A stretch of DNA of 64,000 nucleotides from Candidatus Stercoripulliclostridium sp. Lineage in GTDB: Bacteria; Bacillota; Clostridia; Christensenellales; DTU072. The translations under genes were made by a program, and so were the position numbers. This document shows, one piece after another, positions 44,155 to 48,769 of the stretch (positions are counted from its first letter, which is position 1; the number at the start of each line of letters is the position of its first letter). The notes under the pieces were generated by a model. It was not told the origin of the DNA. It was given only the letters and a program-made list of their open reading frames with translations, and searched no databases. The stretch is taken from positions 130,007 to 194,006 of the forward strand of contig JAZNIY010000025.1 in NCBI GenBank assembly GCA_045577735.1, given 5' to 3'.

Positions 44155-45732
44155 ATGAAAGTTGAATACACCGCAAAACAGTTGGATGATTTATCCATTT
44201 TTGCACTCCGTGATTTAGCACGAGAATGCGGTCATAACAGCCCTACAAACAAGAAAAAGAGTGAGCTTGTCGAGTTTATTTTAGGCTGTAAGGGCGAAAA
44301 CGTTGTTAACGGAGAAGAGGAAACCCCCAAAAAACGTCGTGGTCGTCCTCCAAAGAAGAGCACTACCCAAGCACTTTTGGAAGAAAAAACCGTGAATGCT
44401 GTGGCAGAGCCCAAAGAACAAGATATCGTTGAAGATAACAAAGAAGAAAAAACCGGTTTTAAAACCACCTATTTTGATAAAAAAGGAAACGCAACTAACG
44501 GCCGTTTCAATTTGAACAAAGCAAGCAAACAAAACTCAGAAAGCGAAAAAGAAGAAAGCAAGGAAAAAGCCCCCGAAACTAACGAACAATTAGAAATCAG
44601 AGAGGGTGTACTAGAAATTTGCCCCGATGGTTATGGATTCTTGCGCGCAAACAACTATGAGCAAGGTGACGGTGATGCTTATATTGCTGCTCCTAAAATT
44701 CGCAAGAGTGGGTTGAGAAAGGGCGACTACGTAAAAGCATACGTTAAAAAACTTGCAGAAAACAGACCTATGAGCGTACAAGAGATTATTTCCATTAACG
44801 GAGATAGCCCAGACAAAGCTTTTAGCAGACCTGTTTTCGAAAGCTTAATTCCCATATATCCCGATGAAAGATTCAAGCTTGAGCTTGCAACCAGCAAAAA
44901 GGATTTTGCAATTAGAGCTATAGATCTTGTTGCACCAATAGGTAAAGGGCAACGTGCTATGATCGTTAGCCCGCCTAAAGCCGGTAAGACAACCCTTTTA
45001 AAGAAGATTGCAAACTCCGTTTCATCCAACTATCCCGATGCTCACCTTATGGTACTACTAGTTGACGAGCGTCCCGAAGAAGTTACCGATATGCAACGTT
45101 CCATTAAAGGAGAGGTAATATTTAGTACCTTCGACGAAATGCCCGATCATCACACCAAAGCAAGTGAAATGGTTTTGGAAAGAGCAAAGCGTTTGGTAGA
45201 GCTCGGTCAAGACGTCGTTATATTGATGGACTCCTTAACAAGACTTGCACGTGCATATAACTTGGTTATTACTCCTACCGGCAAGACTTTGTCCGGTGGT
45301 ATCGATCCCGGTTCATTGTACCTTCCTAAAAAATTCTTTGGTGCGGCACGTAACATCGAAAACGGTGGTTCGCTTACCATTATTGCAACTGCACTTGTAG
45401 ATACCGGCTCACGTATGGACGACGTTATCTATGAAGAGTTTAAGGGCACGGGTAACATGGAAATACACCTTGACAGAAAGCTTTCCGAAAAGCGCATATT
45501 CCCTGCAATCGACCTCGCAAGAAGTGGAACGAGAAGGGAGGAATTACTACTTTCCGAAGAAGAGCTACTTGGCATATTCGCTGTTCGCAAGATGTTAAGC
45601 ACGGGCGACGTACAAGAGTCAACGGAAAAATTAATTTCTATGATGATGGGCACGGACACCAACAAAGACTTTATCCAAATGCTCACCATTCAAATGAAAG
45701 AACTTCAAAAGAAAGGTTATAACTTTGTATAA
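44155..45732 (+). CDS. rho: transcription termination factor Rho with ~100-aa N-terminal insertion domain
   Basis: Rho_N helix-hairpin (LDDLSIFALRDLAREC), cold-shock-like RNA-binding domain (GVLEICPDGYGFLR), Walker A PPKAGKTTLL. A charged insert carrying KKRRGRPPKK lies between Rho_N and the CSD. Confidence 0.9.
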   Translation: MKVEYTAKQLDDLSIFALRDLARECGHNSPTNKKKSELVEFILGCKGENVVNGEEETPKKRRGRPPKKSTTQALLEEKTVNAVAEPKEQDIVEDNKEEKTGFKTTYFDKKGNATNGRFNLNKASKQNSESEKEESKEKAPETNEQLEIREGVLEICPDGYGFLRANNYEQGDGDAYIAAPKIRKSGLRKGDYVKAYVKKLAENRPMSVQEIISINGDSPDKAFSRPVFESLIPIYPDERFKLELATSKKDFAIRAIDLVAPIGKGQRAMIVSPPKAGKTTLLKKIANSVSSNYPDAHLMVLLVDERPEEVTDMQRSIKGEVIFSTFDEMPDHHTKASEMVLERAKRLVELGQDVVILMDSLTRLARAYNLVITPTGKTLSGGIDPGSLYLPKKFFGAARNIENGGSLTIIATALVDTGSRMDDVIYEEFKGTGNMEIHLDRKLSEKRIFPAIDLARSGTRREELLLSEEELLGIFAVRKMLSTGDVQESTEKLISMMMGTDTNKDFIQMLTIQMKELQKKGYNFV

Positions 45733-45792
45733 TAGGTAACCGTATTTGGCGCTTTAGAGAGCCAAATATTGAAATTACCAAACAAACAATGC

Positions 45793-45825
45793 AAAAGCCA
45801 TCACGAATTTCGCGATGGCTTTTTT
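45793..45825 (+). terminator. Rho-independent terminator after rho
   Basis: GCCATCACGAA/TTCGCGATGGC stem with one mismatch, flanked by A4 and T5. Confidence 0.7.
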
Positions 45826-45868
45826 GTTAGGATAGGGTGTAAAATTGTACTTGTAGAAAAAAAGGGTA

Positions 45869-45897
45869 TTGACAAAAAGCGCACTTTAATGTATAAG
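45869..45897 (+). promoter_or_regulatory. sigma-A promoter driving the riboswitch leader
   Basis: TTGACA (45869-45874), 17-nt spacer ending in TG, TATAAG (45892-45897). Confidence 0.65.
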
Positions 45898-45941
45898 TTT
45901 ATTATATAGTAATATAAATAATAATCTTAAAAGTTAAGCAA

Positions 45942-46036
45942 GGTATATGCTCTTAATATGGAAGAGCGTTTCTACCAACCACCGTTAATGGTTGACTACC
46001 GAGGCAAAGGATGCCTTATGGTCAGCTATTTTTTTT
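45942..46036 (+). promoter_or_regulatory. purine riboswitch, guanine class (C at specificity position), with overlapping intrinsic terminator
   Basis: P1 GGUA/UACC. P2 GCUCUU/AAGAGC with L2 AAUAUGG. J2-3 GUUUCUAC is identical to B. subtilis xpt. P3 CAACCA/UGGUUG with L3 CCGUUAA. J3-1 is AC. The terminator stem spans 45989-46028 and is followed by U8 (46029-46036). Confidence 0.85.
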
Positions 46037-46103
46037 CGATAGCAATCATAAAAGCATTGTAATTCTTTTGTCCTTAATGCATAACATAGAAAGGATGGTA
46101 CTT

Positions 46104-47810
46104 ATGAATTTAATTATAGAAGGTCATAGCATTACTCCAAGACCCGATACATCTCTTTTTACAATGGTCCAAGAGCTGGGATTGTTTAGTGGCAAGCTTT
46201 CTTCCGACCCCATTGTTGCAAAAATTGCCGGTAGAGTTTTTACCCTTAATTACGTGCCCGTTAGAAGCAAAGATTTAGCACCCGAGCGTGGCTCCATTCG
46301 TAAAGCTATGGCGGCGTCTGACGGCACAGTGGAGTTAATAAGGTACGATTCTCCCATAGGTCGTGACGCATACACTAGAACGGCTCAGTTCGTTATGTTT
46401 TATTCTTTGTATCAATTGTGGCCAAGAGCTAAGGCGCAAATGGCATGTACTATTGGAGCAAGCCTCTACGTTAAAGTGACGAACTGCCCCGAGTTTGACG
46501 TTGAGAAGTTTAAGGAAGAAGTACAAAAGACGGCAAACGAAAACTTTCCGTTGCATCGTCGCAGAATAACCATTCAAGAGGCAATGGATTATTACAATGC
46601 AACAGCCCAAGAGGACAAGGCACGACTGCTTTCTTATCGTAAAAAGCGCACGTTGGACGTTTATGAAAAAGACGACTTTTGTGACTACTTCTACGGAGAA
46701 ATGGCACCCACAACCGGCTTTTTGCGTTCGTGGGATATATTGCCCGCGGAAGAAGGATTCATATTTGTATTCCCCGATATGAATAATCCCGACAGGGTTT
46801 CAACCTACAAAGAAATGCCCAATTTCTTTAACGTGTACAACGAAGGCAAGAGGTGGGGAGCACTAATGGAATGTGAAACCATAGCGGACCTAAACGAGCT
46901 AACCGAGAGCGGAAAGATACGTGAACTTATTCGTGTTAACGAGGCATTACACGAAAAGAGATTCTCTGCCGTTGCAGATATGGTTTGTGAAATGGGGGCA
47001 AGGGTTGTGCTTCTTGCAGGGCCCAGCTCGTCGGGAAAGACCACGTCTGCAAATCGTCTAGCAACCCAGTTGCGCACACACGGCAAGAAGCCAATTTTAA
47101 TGAGCCTTGACGATTATTACATCGATCGTGACAAAATTCTTCCGGGTCCTGATGGTAAGGTTGACCTAGAACACATAAATACCCTTGATACGGCTTTGTT
47201 TAGTGAGCAACTCCAACAACTTCTTTTGGGACAAGAGGTGGAAATTCCCACGTTTAATTTTAAAAAGGGAAAGCGCGAATGGATAGGACACAAAATGAGA
47301 TTAGAGGACAGCTCTATCATTATAATGGAAGGTATTCACGCCTTGAACCCACAATTGCTCCCCGAAAACTTGGATGCTAATTTGATATTTAGGATTTATG
47401 CAAGTCCTTTAATACCATTAAACATGGATGACCATAACAGAATCAACACCAGCTTTTTAAGGTTGCTTCGTAGGACTGTGAGGGATTTTGAATCGCGTGG
47501 CTCTTCCGTTGAGAACACCCTCGATATGTGGCCTTCCGTAAGGCGTGGCGAGGAAAAATGGATATTCCCATACCAAGAGAATGCCGACGTAATATTCAAT
47601 ACTTCTACGCTTTATGAACTTGCCGTTATTAAGAAATTCATCTATCCGTTACTTTTGAAGGTGGAACCGGGTGACGAATGTTATGACCAAGTTAGAAGCA
47701 TGGTAAAGGTATTAAATTACATTACTGAAGCTGACGTAGAGGATGAAATACCCCCAACGAGCATCGTGCGTGAATTTATTGGAGGCAACACTTTCTATCG
47801 TAAAGATTAA
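46104..47810 (+). CDS. long Udk/PRK-family P-loop kinase with TGS-like N-terminal region (nucleoside kinase-like)
   Basis: Start moved to the ATG at 46104, 7 nt after SD AAAGGATGG. The ORF-track start at 46011 lies inside the terminator. P-loop LLAGPSSSGKTT followed by LDDYY and IIMEGIHALN blocks, typical of the uridine kinase/phosphoribulokinase family. Confidence 0.7.
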   Translation: MNLIIEGHSITPRPDTSLFTMVQELGLFSGKLSSDPIVAKIAGRVFTLNYVPVRSKDLAPERGSIRKAMAASDGTVELIRYDSPIGRDAYTRTAQFVMFYSLYQLWPRAKAQMACTIGASLYVKVTNCPEFDVEKFKEEVQKTANENFPLHRRRITIQEAMDYYNATAQEDKARLLSYRKKRTLDVYEKDDFCDYFYGEMAPTTGFLRSWDILPAEEGFIFVFPDMNNPDRVSTYKEMPNFFNVYNEGKRWGALMECETIADLNELTESGKIRELIRVNEALHEKRFSAVADMVCEMGARVVLLAGPSSSGKTTSANRLATQLRTHGKKPILMSLDDYYIDRDKILPGPDGKVDLEHINTLDTALFSEQLQQLLLGQEVEIPTFNFKKGKREWIGHKMRLEDSSIIIMEGIHALNPQLLPENLDANLIFRIYASPLIPLNMDDHNRINTSFLRLLRRTVRDFESRGSSVENTLDMWPSVRRGEEKWIFPYQENADVIFNTSTLYELAVIKKFIYPLLLKVEPGDECYDQVRSMVKVLNYITEADVEDEIPPTSIVREFIGGNTFYRKD

Positions 47811-47879: not shown

Positions 47880-48113
47880 TTATTCTTCAAAATCATTAAA
47901 ATAATCTTTATTAAAAAATTCTGACAAAGTAATGCCTGCCCCTTGGCAAAAAGCTTTTATGGTGGATACTTTGGAGCATTTTGTTCTGCCTTTAATCAAA
48001 TCGTATATGGCAGATGGAGATTTACCACCATTTAATGAAGCTTCACATACGTTTAAATTTTTATCCTTGCAGATTTCTTCAATCCGATTAACGATTGCAT
48101 CATTCAAGTTCAT
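47880..48113 (-). CDS. XRE-family helix-turn-helix transcriptional regulator (77 aa)
   Basis: HTH_3-like pattern: N-terminal RIEEICKDKNL...SAIYDLIKGR...TIKAFCQGAGITLSEFF. SD AAGGTG. Confidence 0.75.
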   Translation of the reverse strand: MNLNDAIVNRIEEICKDKNLNVCEASLNGGKSPSAIYDLIKGRTKCSKVSTIKAFCQGAGITLSEFFNKDYFNDFEE

Positions 48114-48122
48114 ATAATCACC

Positions 48123-48250
48123 TTCGTGGAGTTTCTTATCGCTATTCCACGAAAGTATTATATGAATTGTTTAAAAATTTATCTCGTGGAGTTCCACGAA
48201 ATTGACAGAGTTAAATGGATTTTTGTATAATTATTTGTGGAGTTCCACGA
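48123..48250. promoter_or_regulatory. three copies of a TTCGTGGA / TCCACGAA inverted-repeat operator in the divergent control region
   Basis: O1 is 48123-48153, with halves 15 nt apart. O2 is 48184-48199 (TCGTGGA-GT-TCCACGA), abutting the -35. O3 is 48235-48250 (TTGTGGA-GT-TCCACGA), between the -10 and the SD. Confidence 0.7.
48202..48231 (+). promoter_or_regulatory. promoter of the SLOG-like gene
   Basis: TTGACA (48202-48207), 18 nt, TG-TATAAT (48226-48231). Confidence 0.6.
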
Positions 48251-48268
48251 AAAAAGCAGAGGTGGAGT

Positions 48269-48769
48269 ATGAAGGTTTGTTTTATTGGTCACAAAAATAT
48301 ACAAAAAGACGATGAACTTGAAATGTTATTAGAACAAACAGTAATAAAGCTCATAAAAAGTGGAGCTAAGACTTTTCTTTTTGGTAGCATGAGTGAGTTT
48401 GACGATTTTTCATGGGGAGTCGTTACAAAATTAAGACTACAGTTCCCCTGGATTAAACGAGTATACGTTAGGGCGGTTAATCAGAATATAGATGTTTTAT
48501 ACGAAAAATATTTGCTTGAATCTTATGAAGAAACGTTTTTTCCATCAAAGTTAGAAAAAGCGGGTAGACATTCTTACGTGGAGCGAAACTTTGAGATGAT
48601 TGACAATGCCACGTATTGTATATTTTATTATAACGAAAACTACGTTCCGGTTGGTTTGCGTGAACGAAAGAGTGGTACAAAAATTGCTTATAACTATGCA
48701 ATTAAAAAGAAGAAAAAAATAATCAATTTGTATAGGGATAAAATTTTTTGTCAAAAAGATTGGAAATAA
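48269..48769 (+). CDS. SLOG/DUF1273-like (YpsA/YoqJ-like) protein
   Basis: Start moved to the ATG at 48269, after SD GAGGTGGAG. The MKVCFIGHKN N-terminal strand, FLFGSMSEFD and ERNFEMIDNATYCIFYY pattern resemble the Rossmann-like SLOG fold. Identified by eye only. Confidence 0.5.
   Translation: MKVCFIGHKNIQKDDELEMLLEQTVIKLIKSGAKTFLFGSMSEFDDFSWGVVTKLRLQFPWIKRVYVRAVNQNIDVLYEKYLLESYEETFFPSKLEKAGRHSYVERNFEMIDNATYCIFYYNENYVPVGLRERKSGTKIAYNYAIKKKKKIINLYRDKIFCQKDWK

What the first reader, a model, noticed from the sequence alone, without database searches (positions are those of the whole stretch)
45869..46106. Guanine-class purine riboswitch wired as a probable ON switch
Nucleotides 45942-46000 fit the purine aptamer almost base for base against B. 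subtilis xpt. The J2-3 sequence GUUUCUAC is identical. L2 is AAUAUGG and L3 is CCGUUAA, preserving the loop-loop motifs. J3-1 is AC, with C at the specificity position (the C74 equivalent), which indicates guanine or hypoxanthine rather than adenine.

The only intrinsic terminator is the stem at 45989-46028, followed directly by U8 at 46029-46036. Its 5' arm is made of the 3' strands of P3 and P1 plus J3-1. The folded aptamer and the terminator are therefore mutually exclusive.

That is the logic of the pbuE adenine ON switch. Most guanine riboswitches are OFF switches that need a separate antiterminator. P1 is only 4 bp, which would make the decision strongly kinetic.
Basis: partly seen in the sequence, partly recalled or inferred. 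Interest (0 to 1): 0.7.

Follow-up and report, generated by a model that had tools for sequence, protein, structure and literature searches.

The report
Guanine-type riboswitch wired as ON switch
This is a genuine purine-sensing RNA switch with a guanine-type pocket, and its built-in transcription stop signal can form only when the sensor is unfolded, so the purine should turn on the downstream nucleoside-kinase gene; the same design recurs in dozens of uncultured gut and rumen Clostridia.

Summary

**Aptamer.** Rfam RF00167 (Purine) hits 45921-46018 at 60.3 bits (gathering score 37). The core at 45942-46000 has canonical guanine-I junctions, with C74 at 45996. P1 is only 4 bp and P2 is 6 bp.

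**Terminator.** The only intrinsic terminator is 45989-46028 followed by U8 at 46029-46036. Its 5' arm is made of the 3' strand of P3, J3-1 and the 3' strand of P1. Aptamer and terminator are therefore mutually exclusive, which is pbuE-type ON logic. A hairpin at 46001-46017 can form in both states and looks like pbuE's toehold.

**Comparative support.** The same subtype occurs in 59 distinct aptamer sequences. At least 59 of 61 distinct leaders have the overlapping terminator. All six P2 pairs covary.

**Regulated genes.** The subtype precedes three gene sets:
- a Udk-family "nucleoside kinase", often behind a half-size YgjV-like membrane protein;
- an FAD oxidoreductase;
- a DUF1349 fragment.

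**What is not shown.** Ligand identity and the direction of regulation are inferred, not measured.

**Literature.** The papers I could search describe guanine-I switches as OFF, and report ON logic only for pocket variants (guanine-II, xanthine-II, 2'-dG-III, 8-oxoG).

I file it as a new variant of a known kind, of moderate interest.

The parts
45869..45897 (+). Probable sigma-A promoter: TTGACA (45869-45874), 17-nt spacer, TATAAG (45892-45897). The transcription start is inferred near 45904.
   Evidence: Read directly from the sequence. Equivalent TTGACA-17-TATAAT promoters sit upstream of the aptamer in L001, L002, L003 and L006. The scanner did not list it because it requires T at hexamer position 6. 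The upstream rho gene has its own terminator at 45793-45823.
45942..46000 (+). Purine aptamer core with guanine-I-type junctions. P1 45942-45945/45997-46000; J1-2 45946-45948; P2 45949-45954/45962-45967; L2 45955-45961; J2-3 45968-45975; P3 45976-45981/45989-45994; L3 45982-45988; J3-1 45995-45996 (C74 = 45996).
   Evidence: RF00167 at 60.3 bits over 45921-46018. Subclass model R1 scores 89 bits. Pair identities verified. All six P2 pairs covary in relatives.
46001..46017 (+). Hairpin that can form in both states (GAGGCA / AAGGA loop / UGCCUU). It is the upper part of the terminator and the probable toehold for strand invasion, equivalent to pbuE P4/L4.
   Evidence: It forms both in the unconstrained MFE and in the aptamer-enforced fold. 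In isolation it folds at -6.3 kcal/mol (that value does not depend on the coordinate error in that call). The role of P4/L4 in pbuE is described in PMC7707468.
45989..46028 (+). Intrinsic terminator hairpin. The lower stem 45989-45998 / 46019-46028 uses the P3 3' strand, J3-1 and three of the four nucleotides of the P1 3' strand (45997-45998 in the helix; 45999-46000 in the CC/A internal loop).
   Evidence: It is the MFE structure of the leader. The isolated hairpin folds at -18.6 kcal/mol. The same overlap is present in 59 of 61 distinct leaders.
46029..46036 (+). U8 tract of the terminator, directly after the stem.
   Evidence: Sequence.
46090..46095 (+). Ribosome-binding site AAAGGA, 8 nt before the start codon. 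It is not part of the switch.
   Evidence: Sequence. It lies 54 nt downstream of the U-tract.
46104..47810 (+). Regulated gene: a 568-aa 'nucleoside kinase'. It has a C-terminal PRK/uridine-kinase-family domain (residues about 300-508) and an N-terminal region resembling the threonyl-tRNA synthetase N-terminus.
   Evidence: Pfam PF00485, E 2.5e-15. NCBIfam uridine-kinase models match but fall below their cut-offs. PDB 3ASY/3W8R at E about 5e-12 and 1NYQ at E 2e-3. Sources name homologues 'nucleoside kinase'.

Best explanation
This is a transcriptional ON riboswitch built from a guanine-I-type purine aptamer.

Transcription starts from its own promoter near 45904. Once the RNA reaches about 46000 the three-way junction can fold. 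The hairpin 46001-46017 then forms whatever the ligand state.

If no purine is bound, the next 11 nucleotides (46018-46028) invade P1, J3-1 and the 3' strand of P3 from that hairpin. This completes a long terminator stem directly in front of U8, and RNA polymerase terminates.

If guanine (or hypoxanthine) is bound, the junction and its base triples lock the P1-proximal pairs and block the invasion. Only the small hairpin exists, 11 nt away from the U-tract. Polymerase then reads through into the nucleoside-kinase gene.

Because P1 is only 4 bp and the decision window is about 30-36 nt of transcription, the switch should be kinetically controlled, as pbuE is.

Shown here: the aptamer's family membership, the mutually exclusive pairing, and its conservation and covariation. 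Inferred: ligand identity, the direction of regulation, the strand-exchange pathway and the kinetics.
For: - RF00167 at 60.3 bits against a gathering score of 37; all pocket and triple positions are canonical, including C74.
- The terminator is the MFE fold and uses 45989-45998 of the aptamer.
- No other + strand terminator was found in 45500-46400.
- Counted from the inferred start, the aptamer fold is within 0-2.2 kcal/mol of the MFE until the 3' end reaches 46022. The terminator state then wins by 8.9 kcal/mol at 46036 (-33.9 against -25.0). That gap is comparable to the measured binding energy of a related guanine aptamer (-10.8 kcal/mol, PMC12445698).
- Conservation: the subtype is found in the window and 11 kinase loci and in 69 of 76 metagenome stretches.
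- 59 of 61 distinct leaders place at least 4 aptamer nucleotides in a hairpin that ends no more than 2 nt before the U-run, against 29% of shuffles.
- A contiguous helix of at least 8 bp is present in 38 of 61 leaders, against about 3% of shuffles.
- The terminators differ in loop, length and register.
- P2 covaries at 6 of 6 pairs, with 74 double-change cells and 0 of 500 shuffles reaching that.
- P1 is 4 bp across the whole subtype.
- Twelve representatives pass Rfam's threshold independently.
- The mechanistic template is experimentally established for pbuE (PMC7707468). The same terminator-overlap logic is used to call guanine-II, 2'-dG-III and 8-oxoG switches ON (PMC9295807, PMC10556655).
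Against: - There are no binding or transcription data.
- P1 (4 bp) and P2 (6 bp) are shorter than the family consensus, and position 24 is U. Any of these could weaken or alter binding.
- The regulated genes (Udk-family kinase, YgjV-like protein, FAD oxidoreductase) are atypical for guanine switches. In the Breaker laboratory's experience that often signals altered specificity.
- The metagenome set was collected with a pattern that fixed GTTTCTAC and GGTTGACTACC. Invariance of those segments in that set is therefore partly by construction. Only the 12 kinase-derived loci are unbiased.
- The sequences are phylogenetically related, so the counts are not independent events.
- The weak overlap criterion is met by 29% of shuffles.
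- Secondary-structure energies ignore tertiary structure and kinetics.
Confidence: 0.75

Rival explanations
1. The architecture and ON logic are the same, but the natural ligand is not free guanine or hypoxanthine. The subtype would have shifted specificity, for example towards xanthine, a modified purine or a nucleoside-derived signal, as happened in xanthine-II, 2'-dG-III and 8-oxoG variants of the same scaffold.
For: - The gene associations are atypical for guanine-I: nucleoside kinase with or without a YgjV-like membrane protein, an FAD oxidoreductase, and DUF1349.
- The subtype has its own conserved peculiarities: a 6-bp P2, a 4-bp P1, position 24 as U, A or G, and the first P3 pair unpaired in 29 of 55 sequences, mostly A opposite G.
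- Atypical gene context was the clue that led to every known specificity variant (PMC9295807, PMC10556655).
Against: - All nucleotides that contact the ligand or form the flanking triples in guanine-I are unchanged, and J2-3 has no insertion or deletion.
- Every known specificity variant carries junction changes (PMC9295807, PMC10556655).
- With U51 and a canonical J2-3 there is no obvious room for a ribose at N9. This point rests on my knowledge of the xpt structure and was not tested here.
Confidence: 0.15
2. It is an ordinary OFF switch. An unrecognised antiterminator would exist, and ligand binding would promote termination.
For: Most described guanine-I riboswitches are OFF (PMC9295807 section 5, PMC11477304, PMC12445698).
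Against: - The U8 tract directly follows a stem whose 5' arm is the aptamer's own P3 3' strand, J3-1 and P1 3' strand. A folded aptamer therefore removes the terminator.
- With the aptamer enforced, only the 6-bp hairpin 46001-46017 remains, 11 nt from the U-tract.
- No second terminator lies before the start codon.
- The overlap is conserved in at least 59 of 61 distinct leaders.
Confidence: 0.04
3. It is a decayed or non-functional aptamer next to a constitutive attenuator or leaky terminator, with no ligand control.
For: - P1 is very short and P2 is shortened.
- One relative (L007) has the aptamer interrupted by about 140 nt.
- One relative (L140) lacks a terminator.
Against: - Junction nucleotides are strictly conserved in 59 distinct sequences, P2 has compensatory changes at all six pairs, and the L2 GG and L3 CC are preserved.
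- The design is retained in front of three unrelated gene sets.
- Rfam scores are above threshold in all 12 representatives tested.
Confidence: 0.05

Closest known systems
Bacillus subtilis pbuE (ydhL) adenine riboswitch: transcriptional ON switch
   Same: - Same three-way-junction purine aptamer fold.
- The terminator's 5' arm is made of the P1 3' strand, J3-1 and the P3 3' strand.
- A hairpin between aptamer and terminator 3' arm can form in both states (pbuE P4/L4; here 46001-46017), and strand exchange can start from it.
- No separate antiterminator is needed.
- Kinetic control is expected (PMC7707468).
   Different: - The specificity nucleotide is C here (guanine class), not U.
- P1 is 4 bp here.
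- There is no hexa-U pause tract on the 3' side of the toehold hairpin.
- The regulated gene is a Udk-family nucleoside kinase, not a purine efflux pump.
Guanine-I riboswitch (B. subtilis xpt-pbuX type; Rfam RF00167)
   Same: - The junction sequences are identical (J2-3 GUUUCUAC, J3-1 AC, U22, C74).
- The L2 GG and L3 CC needed for the loop-loop contact are present.
- It passes the Rfam model at 60.3 bits.
   Different: - Guanine-I switches are described as OFF devices with a separate antiterminator, controlling purine synthesis, salvage and uptake (PMC9295807, PMC12445698).
- This one has ON wiring, a 4-bp P1, a 6-bp P2, position 24 = U, and a different regulon.
Guanine-II riboswitch (Paenibacillus PRT genes)
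   Same: It is guanine-responsive and predicted ON through a terminator that overlaps the aptamer. The rationale is substrate-induced salvage (PMC9295807 section 7, PMC12445698).
   Different: Guanine-II has a nucleotide insertion in J2-3 and other core changes. It is narrowly distributed, mostly in Paenibacillus, and controls phosphoribosyltransferases. The element here has an unmodified guanine-I core.
2'-dG-III and 8-oxoguanine riboswitch variants
   Same: - Same scaffold with ON-type terminator overlap.
- 2'-dG-III controls a nucleoside-metabolism gene, a purine nucleoside hydrolase (PMC9295807 section 8).
- In 8-oxoG switches the terminator cannot form when P1 and P3 are formed (PMC10556655).
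   Different: Both carry junction changes: 2'-dG-III in all three junctions, and 8-oxoG a deletion of U47. None of these changes is present here.

Membership tests
Purine riboswitch aptamer (Rfam RF00167) | Score at or above the curated gathering threshold of the covariance model | tested here: met
   60.3 bits against 37, E 5.9e-8, full-length match to model positions 1-102. Twelve relatives score 38.2-57.8 bits.
Purine riboswitch aptamer (Rfam RF00167) | Three-way junction P1-P2-P3 supported by base pairing and covariation | tested here: met
   All pairs in the window are Watson-Crick. P2 covaries at 6 of 6 pairs, 94.7% of cells are paired, and 0 of 500 shuffles reach the observed value. P1 and P3 are invariant, so they neither support nor contradict the fold.
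Purine riboswitch aptamer (Rfam RF00167) | L2-L3 loop-loop interaction (G37-C61 and G38-C60 equivalents) | tested here: met
   L2 ends in GG (59 and 58 of 59 sequences) and L3 begins with CC (57 and 59 of 59). This shows sequence compatibility only; the tertiary contact itself cannot be tested.
Purine riboswitch aptamer (Rfam RF00167) | Consensus helix lengths (P1 of 6 bp or more, P2 of 7 bp) | tested here: not met
   P1 is 4 bp and P2 is 6 bp in the window and throughout the subtype. These are typical rather than strictly defining features, and the model still scores well above threshold.
Guanine-I class (guanine/hypoxanthine specificity) | C at position 74, with U22, U47 and U51 and an unmodified 8-nt J2-3 | tested here: met
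   C45996, J2-3 GUUUCUAC at 45968-45975, and U at 45946. These are conserved in 58-59 of 59 subtype sequences.
Guanine-I class (guanine/hypoxanthine specificity) | Selective high-affinity binding of guanine or hypoxanthine | not testable with these tools
   This needs in-line probing or ITC.
Guanine-I class (guanine/hypoxanthine specificity) | Typical regulon (purine biosynthesis, salvage, transport) and OFF direction | tested here: not met
   The downstream genes are a Udk-family kinase, a YgjV-like protein, an FAD oxidoreductase and a DUF1349 fragment, and the wiring is ON. These features are typical of the class rather than part of the aptamer's definition.
pbuE-type transcriptional ON expression platform | Intrinsic terminator (stem plus U-tract) whose 5' arm overlaps the P1 3' strand, J3-1 and P3 3' strand | tested here: met
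   45989-45998 pairs with 46019-46028, followed directly by U8. The overlap is conserved in 59 of 61 distinct leaders.
pbuE-type transcriptional ON expression platform | Ligand-independent nucleator (toehold) hairpin between the aptamer and the terminator's 3' arm | tested here: met
   46001-46017 forms in both the MFE and the aptamer-enforced fold. Many relatives have an equivalent inner hairpin, while others have a simple loop instead.
pbuE-type transcriptional ON expression platform | Ligand-dependent increase in readthrough | not testable with these tools
   This needs single-round transcription or reporter assays.
Guanine-II / xanthine-II / 2'-dG-III / 8-oxoG variant classes | Class-specific junction changes: J2-3 insertions (guanine-II, xanthine-II), U51C (xanthine-II), deletion of U47 (8-oxoG), or changes in all three junctions (2'-dG-III) | tested here: not met
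   None of these changes is present in the window or in the subtype consensus (class definitions from PMC9295807 and PMC10556655).

The most novel reading that the evidence does not exclude
The element would represent a previously undescribed, conserved subclass of purine riboswitch in uncultured gut and rumen Clostridia. Despite its canonical-looking pocket, it would respond to a signal other than free guanine, or to guanine or hypoxanthine acting as a proxy for available purine nucleosides. It would switch on an unrecognised uptake-and-trap nucleoside salvage module: a half-size YgjV/Pnu-like channel plus a long-form Udk-family kinase, analogous to PnuC-NadR. It would also switch on an uncharacterised FAD oxidoreductase.
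Probability: 0.2. Interest if true: 0.7.

Novelty: new variant of a known kind. Interest (0 to 1): 0.5.

Why it matters
**Ligand and regulatory direction are separable.** If confirmed, the most common guanine aptamer (guanine-I) is used in nature not only to repress purine supply genes but also to activate genes. It does this with the pbuE solution, so the pocket would not need to change for the regulatory sign to be inverted.

**An engineering template.** The subtype is a natural, compact guanine-responsive ON switch of about 95 nt, with a 4-bp P1. Grafting the xpt guanine aptamer onto the pbuE platform failed until the aptamer was mutated (PMC7707468). The shortened P2 and mismatched first P3 pair of this subtype may be nature's answer to that problem.

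**Unstudied genes linked to purine status.** It ties three poorly understood gene families to purine status:
- the widespread long-form Udk-like "nucleoside kinase";
- a half-size YgjV-like membrane protein;
- an FAD oxidoreductase.

This gives a testable handle on their function in abundant, uncultured gut and rumen Clostridia.

Tried and rejected
- **Typed-in seed alignment.** MAFFT misaligned the P1 5' strand relative to J1-2, so I dropped it. I built the model from seven genuine relatives instead.
- **Wrong constraint coordinates.** The first constrained-fold run used P2 and P3 coordinates that were off by one, so its constrained energies are invalid. It was redone. Only the isolated-element energies are used.
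- **Wrong reading frames.** The first family scans used 46105 as the start. The correct start is 46104. The first translation of the small ORF in L001 was also out of frame and was corrected.
- **Kinase specificity.** I asked whether the riboswitch-associated kinases differ from riboswitch-free homologues at the base-recognition motif (window 'PTFNFKKGKRE', aligned to Thermus Udk Tyr88/Tyr93). They do not. The Phe is kept throughout the long-form family, including Bacteroidales, and the position equivalent to Tyr93 varies in both groups. No substrate inference can be tied to the riboswitch.
- **Group B neighbourhoods.** These showed no conserved operon partners and gave no pathway clue.
- **Partner genes in the window.** tblastn found neither the YgjV-like protein nor the FAD protein elsewhere in the window.
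- **Literature.**
  - I found no paper linking a guanine riboswitch to a nucleoside or uridine kinase.
  - I found no description of guanine-I ON switches.
  - The Singh and Sengupta 2012 survey could not be retrieved.
  - Barrick and Breaker 2007 was not checked, so prior mention there cannot be excluded.
- **Alternative pairing of the P1 5' strand.** In the OFF-state MFE, GGUA pairs with UACC of J2-3/P3. I considered this as a functional anti-P1 helix. I rejected it as a conserved feature because the fourth pair exists only where position 54 is C, which is 23 of 59 sequences.
Full report
**Observation**

Scanning the whole 64-kb window against Rfam gives one hit at gathering level: RF00167 (Purine) at 45921-46018 on the + strand, 60.3 bits against a threshold of 37, E 5.9e-8.

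The aptamer elements, with pairs verified base by base, are:

| Element | Coordinates | Sequence / note |
|---|---|---|
| P1 | 45942-45945 / 45997-46000 | GGUA/UACC |
| J1-2 | 45946-45948 | UAU |
| P2 | 45949-45954 / 45962-45967 | 6 bp |
| L2 | 45955-45961 | AAUAUGG |
| J2-3 | 45968-45975 | GUUUCUAC |
| P3 | 45976-45981 / 45989-45994 | 6 bp |
| L3 | 45982-45988 | CCGUUAA |
| J3-1 | 45995-45996 | AC; specificity position C at 45996 |

Beyond the four P1 pairs come A.G and A.A mismatches. The Rfam alignment marks these as non-canonical. It also shows one deleted position on each side of L2 and of L3; P2 is one pair shorter than in xpt, whereas P3 matches xpt (xpt sequence from memory).

The leader's minimum-energy fold (-35.1 kcal/mol, z = -3.07 against dinucleotide shuffles) keeps P2. 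It places 45989-45998 into a long hairpin with 46019-46028, capped by 46001-46006/46012-46017. That hairpin ends directly at T8, 46029-46036.

**Transcription unit**

- The upstream gene (44155-45732) is transcription termination factor Rho: NCBIfam equivalog, 568 bits.
- Rho has its own hairpin terminator at 45793-45823.
- A near-consensus promoter follows: TTGACA, 17 nt, TATAAG at 45869-45897, read by eye. Equivalent TTGACA-17-TATAAT promoters precede the aptamer in relatives.
- The regulated ORF starts at ATG 46104, behind AAAGGA at 46090-46095.
- The longer ORF from ATG 46011 (599 aa, also protein P0001) begins inside the terminator and is an over-extended gene call.

**The regulated gene**

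- The 568-aa product has a C-terminal PRK/uridine-kinase-family domain: Pfam PF00485, E 2.5e-15.
- NCBIfam uridine-kinase equivalogs match, but far below their cut-offs.
- In the PDB it resembles Thermus uridine-cytidine kinase 3ASY/3W8R (E about 5e-12). Residues 71-215 resemble the N-terminal region of threonyl-tRNA synthetase 1NYQ (E 2e-3).
- Sources call the homologues "nucleoside kinase".
- The residues that read the pyrimidine base in classical uridine-cytidine kinases are not conserved: Phe and Gly occupy the positions of Thermus Tyr88 and Tyr93. The Phe holds for the whole long-form family, whether or not a riboswitch is present, and the second position varies in both groups. The substrate is therefore simply unknown.

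**Mutually exclusive folds**

I counted from the inferred start at 45904.

- The aptamer fold is within 0-2.2 kcal/mol of the MFE for every transcript ending between 46000 and 46022.
- As 46019-46028 emerges, the terminator state pulls ahead. It wins by 8.9 kcal/mol at 46036 (-33.9 against -25.0).
- With the aptamer enforced, only the 6-bp hairpin 46001-46017 forms. It lies 11 nt from the U-tract, so it cannot act as a terminator.
- No other terminator-like site lies on the + strand before the start codon.
- The 8.9 kcal/mol gap is of the order of the binding free energy measured for a related guanine aptamer (-10.8 kcal/mol by ITC, PMC12445698). This is the balance expected of a working switch. 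The comparison is an inference.

**Comparative evidence**

Kinase-based search:
- A protein-based scan of one genome per species returned 80 loci encoding relatives of the kinase, from 70% down to 36% identity and from Clostridia to Bacteroidales.
- Exact-protein look-ups added three closer loci.
- A covariance model built from seven of the aptamers finds the element in the window and 11 loci. All of these carry kinases at least about 66% identical to the window's.
- It finds none in the more distant homologues. The association is therefore specific to one clade.
- In each of the 11 loci with an intact aptamer, the MFE fold places the aptamer's 3' segment into a hairpin that ends at a U-run.
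- The terminators differ in loop sequence, in the presence of an inner hairpin, and in how far they reach into P3.

Metagenome search:
- A DNA pattern specific to the subtype (GTTTCTAC, 13-15 nt, GGTTGACTACC) found 76 metagenomic stretches.
- 69 of these are real aptamers by the model, and 7 are chance matches.

Pooled results:
- Among 61 distinct leaders, 59 place at least 4 aptamer nucleotides into a hairpin ending within 2 nt of the U-run, against 29% of spacer-shuffled controls.
- One of the two exceptions (L087) is an artefact of my U-run picker. The other (L140) has no terminator.
- With a stricter measure, 38 of 61 leaders have a contiguous helix of at least 8 bp between the aptamer's last 14 nt and the 14 nt before the U-run, against about 3% of shuffles. 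56 of 61 have at least 6 bp, against 26%.
- On the 59 distinct aptamer sequences, all six P2 pairs show compensatory changes: 74 double-change cells, 0 of 500 shuffles, and a collapse to 22-43% pairing when the partner column is slid.
- P1 (GGUA/UACC) and the 3' strand of P3 are essentially invariant. This is what one expects of a segment that has to satisfy both the aptamer and the terminator. For the metagenome set it is also partly imposed by my search pattern.
- Candidate fifth and sixth P1 pairs are unpaired in 37 and 39 of 59 sequences, so the 4-bp P1 is a property of the subtype.
- Twelve representatives from all gene contexts pass Rfam's own threshold, at 38-58 bits.

**Regulon**

The subtype sits in front of three gene sets.

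- **(A) Nucleoside kinase.** In most loci the kinase is preceded by a 75-95-aa hydrophobic protein. That protein matches the C-terminal half of Pfam Imp-YgjV (26.3 bits against a cut-off of 23.5 for one member, 19.2 bits for another). In the window, L003, L006 and several metagenomic loci, the riboswitch precedes the kinase directly.
- **(B) FAD protein.** A roughly 455-aa FAD/NAD(P)-binding oxidoreductase with no equivalog model. It is monocistronic and has no conserved neighbours.
- **(C) DUF1349 fragment.** In human-gut contigs, a 90-aa ORF that matches only the last third of DUF1349.

The window encodes neither the YgjV-like protein nor the FAD protein elsewhere.

**Mechanism**

The anatomy maps one-to-one onto the experimentally dissected pbuE adenine switch (PMC7707468). 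There, a hairpin that forms in both states (P4/L4) acts as a toehold. Its 3' flank strand-exchanges through P1, J3/1 and P3 to complete the terminator. Ligand-dependent base triples at the two junction-proximal P1 pairs block the exchange.

Here the corresponding parts are:
- the toehold hairpin, 46001-46017;
- the invading strand, 46018-46028;
- the junction-proximal pairs, U45944-A45998 and A45945-U45997.

All partners of the flanking triples are present: U49, C50, A52 and A73 equivalents. I therefore expect ligand-dependent antitermination under kinetic control, with only about 30-36 nt of transcription between completion of the aptamer and the decision point.

PMC7707468 also reports that xpt-pbuE chimeras failed until the aptamer's ligand-independent tertiary structure was weakened. 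The shortened P2, and the first P3 pair that is unpaired in 29 of 55 sequences (mostly A opposite G), may play that role here. This is speculation.

**Physiological rationale (inferred, low confidence)**

- One possibility is substrate- or product-induced salvage. Guanine or hypoxanthine released from imported purine nucleosides would signal that nucleosides are available. This would induce a channel-plus-kinase trapping module, analogous to PnuC-NadR.
- The alternative is purine-pyrimidine pool balancing, if the kinase acts on pyrimidine nucleosides.

**Comparison with what is known**

- The element is a member of RF00167, and by its junctions it belongs to the guanine-I class.
- The literature I could search describes guanine-I as repressing (PMC9295807 section 5, PMC11477304, PMC12445698).
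- ON logic is reported for adenine (pbuE) and for pocket variants: guanine-II, xanthine-II, 2'-dG-III and 8-oxoG (PMC9295807, PMC10556655).
- None of those variants' junction changes is present here.
- I found no paper linking a guanine riboswitch to a nucleoside or uridine kinase.
- I could not access Singh and Sengupta 2012, and I did not check Barrick and Breaker 2007. An earlier passing mention of guanine-type ON switches cannot be excluded.

**Verdict**

- The element is a conserved, apparently undescribed ON-wired subtype of the guanine-I riboswitch with an unusual regulon. It is a new variant of a known kind, not a new class.
- Interest is moderate (0.5). The mechanism is a known one. 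The combination is not: canonical guanine pocket, minimal P1, ON logic, and control of unstudied nucleoside-metabolism genes in abundant uncultured gut bacteria. That combination would draw a riboswitch specialist's attention, and it is directly testable.

Noticed in passing
L001:2720-2998, L002, L007, L009, L015; metagenome loci such as L087, L090, L097, L122, L155: A small ORF lies between the riboswitch and the kinase gene in most relatives. It encodes a 75-95-aa hydrophobic protein ('LLEIFGYIG..VISMMM.S..KLRI.N..G..IS..Y....WP..VLN') that matches the C-terminal half of Pfam Imp-YgjV. This suggests a half-size SemiSWEET/Pnu-like channel paired with the kinase. The window lacks this gene.
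   Followed up: partly
L085, L091-L093, L098, L116, L119, L126, L135, L141, L149, L150, L158 (group B); L094, L102, L105 and others (group C): The same ON-wired aptamer subtype also precedes two other gene sets. One is a monocistronic FAD/NAD(P)-binding oxidoreductase of about 455 aa with no equivalog model. The other, in human-gut contigs, is a 90-aa ORF matching only the last third of DUF1349, so probably a gene fragment.
   Followed up: partly
L007:2415-2640: The aptamer appears to be interrupted. The 5' part ends within L3 (…CCGAUAAUG), and the 3' part (AUGGUUGACUACC plus terminator) resumes about 140 nt later. This suggests an insertion, or a MAG assembly artefact, inside the riboswitch.
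   Followed up: no
L004:341-399: This relative has GUCUACC instead of GACUACC. That is an A73-to-U change in J3-1, which would alter the U22-A52.A73 triple. The overlapping terminator is retained.
   Followed up: no
window 46011-47810: The longest ORF, and the public gene call P0001 (599 aa), start at an ATG inside the terminator hairpin. The real start is almost certainly ATG 46104, behind AAAGGA. Automated annotation therefore hides the leader. P0013 and P0015 (684 aa) may be similarly over-extended.
   Followed up: partly
window 47880-48769: Two small genes with no Pfam match lie between the kinase and the class II fructose-bisphosphate aldolase gene: 77 aa on the - strand and 184 aa on the + strand. 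In the otherwise syntenic L081 (kinase 89% identical), the aldolase gene follows the kinase directly. This looks like a local insertion.
   Followed up: no
window 45942-45945 with 45973-45976: In the terminator-state MFE, the P1 5' strand GGUA pairs with UACC of J2-3 and the first P3 nucleotide. The sequence CUACC occurs twice, at the J2-3/P3 boundary and at the J3-1/P1 boundary. The fourth pair is possible in only 23 of 59 subtype sequences, so the pairing is probably incidental.
   Followed up: partly
window 44155-45732: Rho is 525 aa long and has a long, Lys/Glu-rich insert of low complexity (roughly residues 45-150) ahead of the RNA-binding domain.
   Followed up: no
L118 (about 100 nt downstream of the riboswitch terminator): A group B-type leader is followed not by the FAD gene but by an ORF that begins with a helix-turn-helix and recombinase-like sequence (MNTPNITNYKPKDFAELLGVSVKTLQRWDREG…). 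This may be a mobile-element insertion behind the riboswitch.
   Followed up: no
L015:2481-2650: A direct repeat of about 100 nt (TTTTTGGAAAAAATTTTCCCAAACCCTTTCAAAAACTTTCGG.ACAAAATGCCGATTTTTCAGGAAAAC…) lies between the riboswitch terminator and the small membrane-protein ORF.
   Followed up: no
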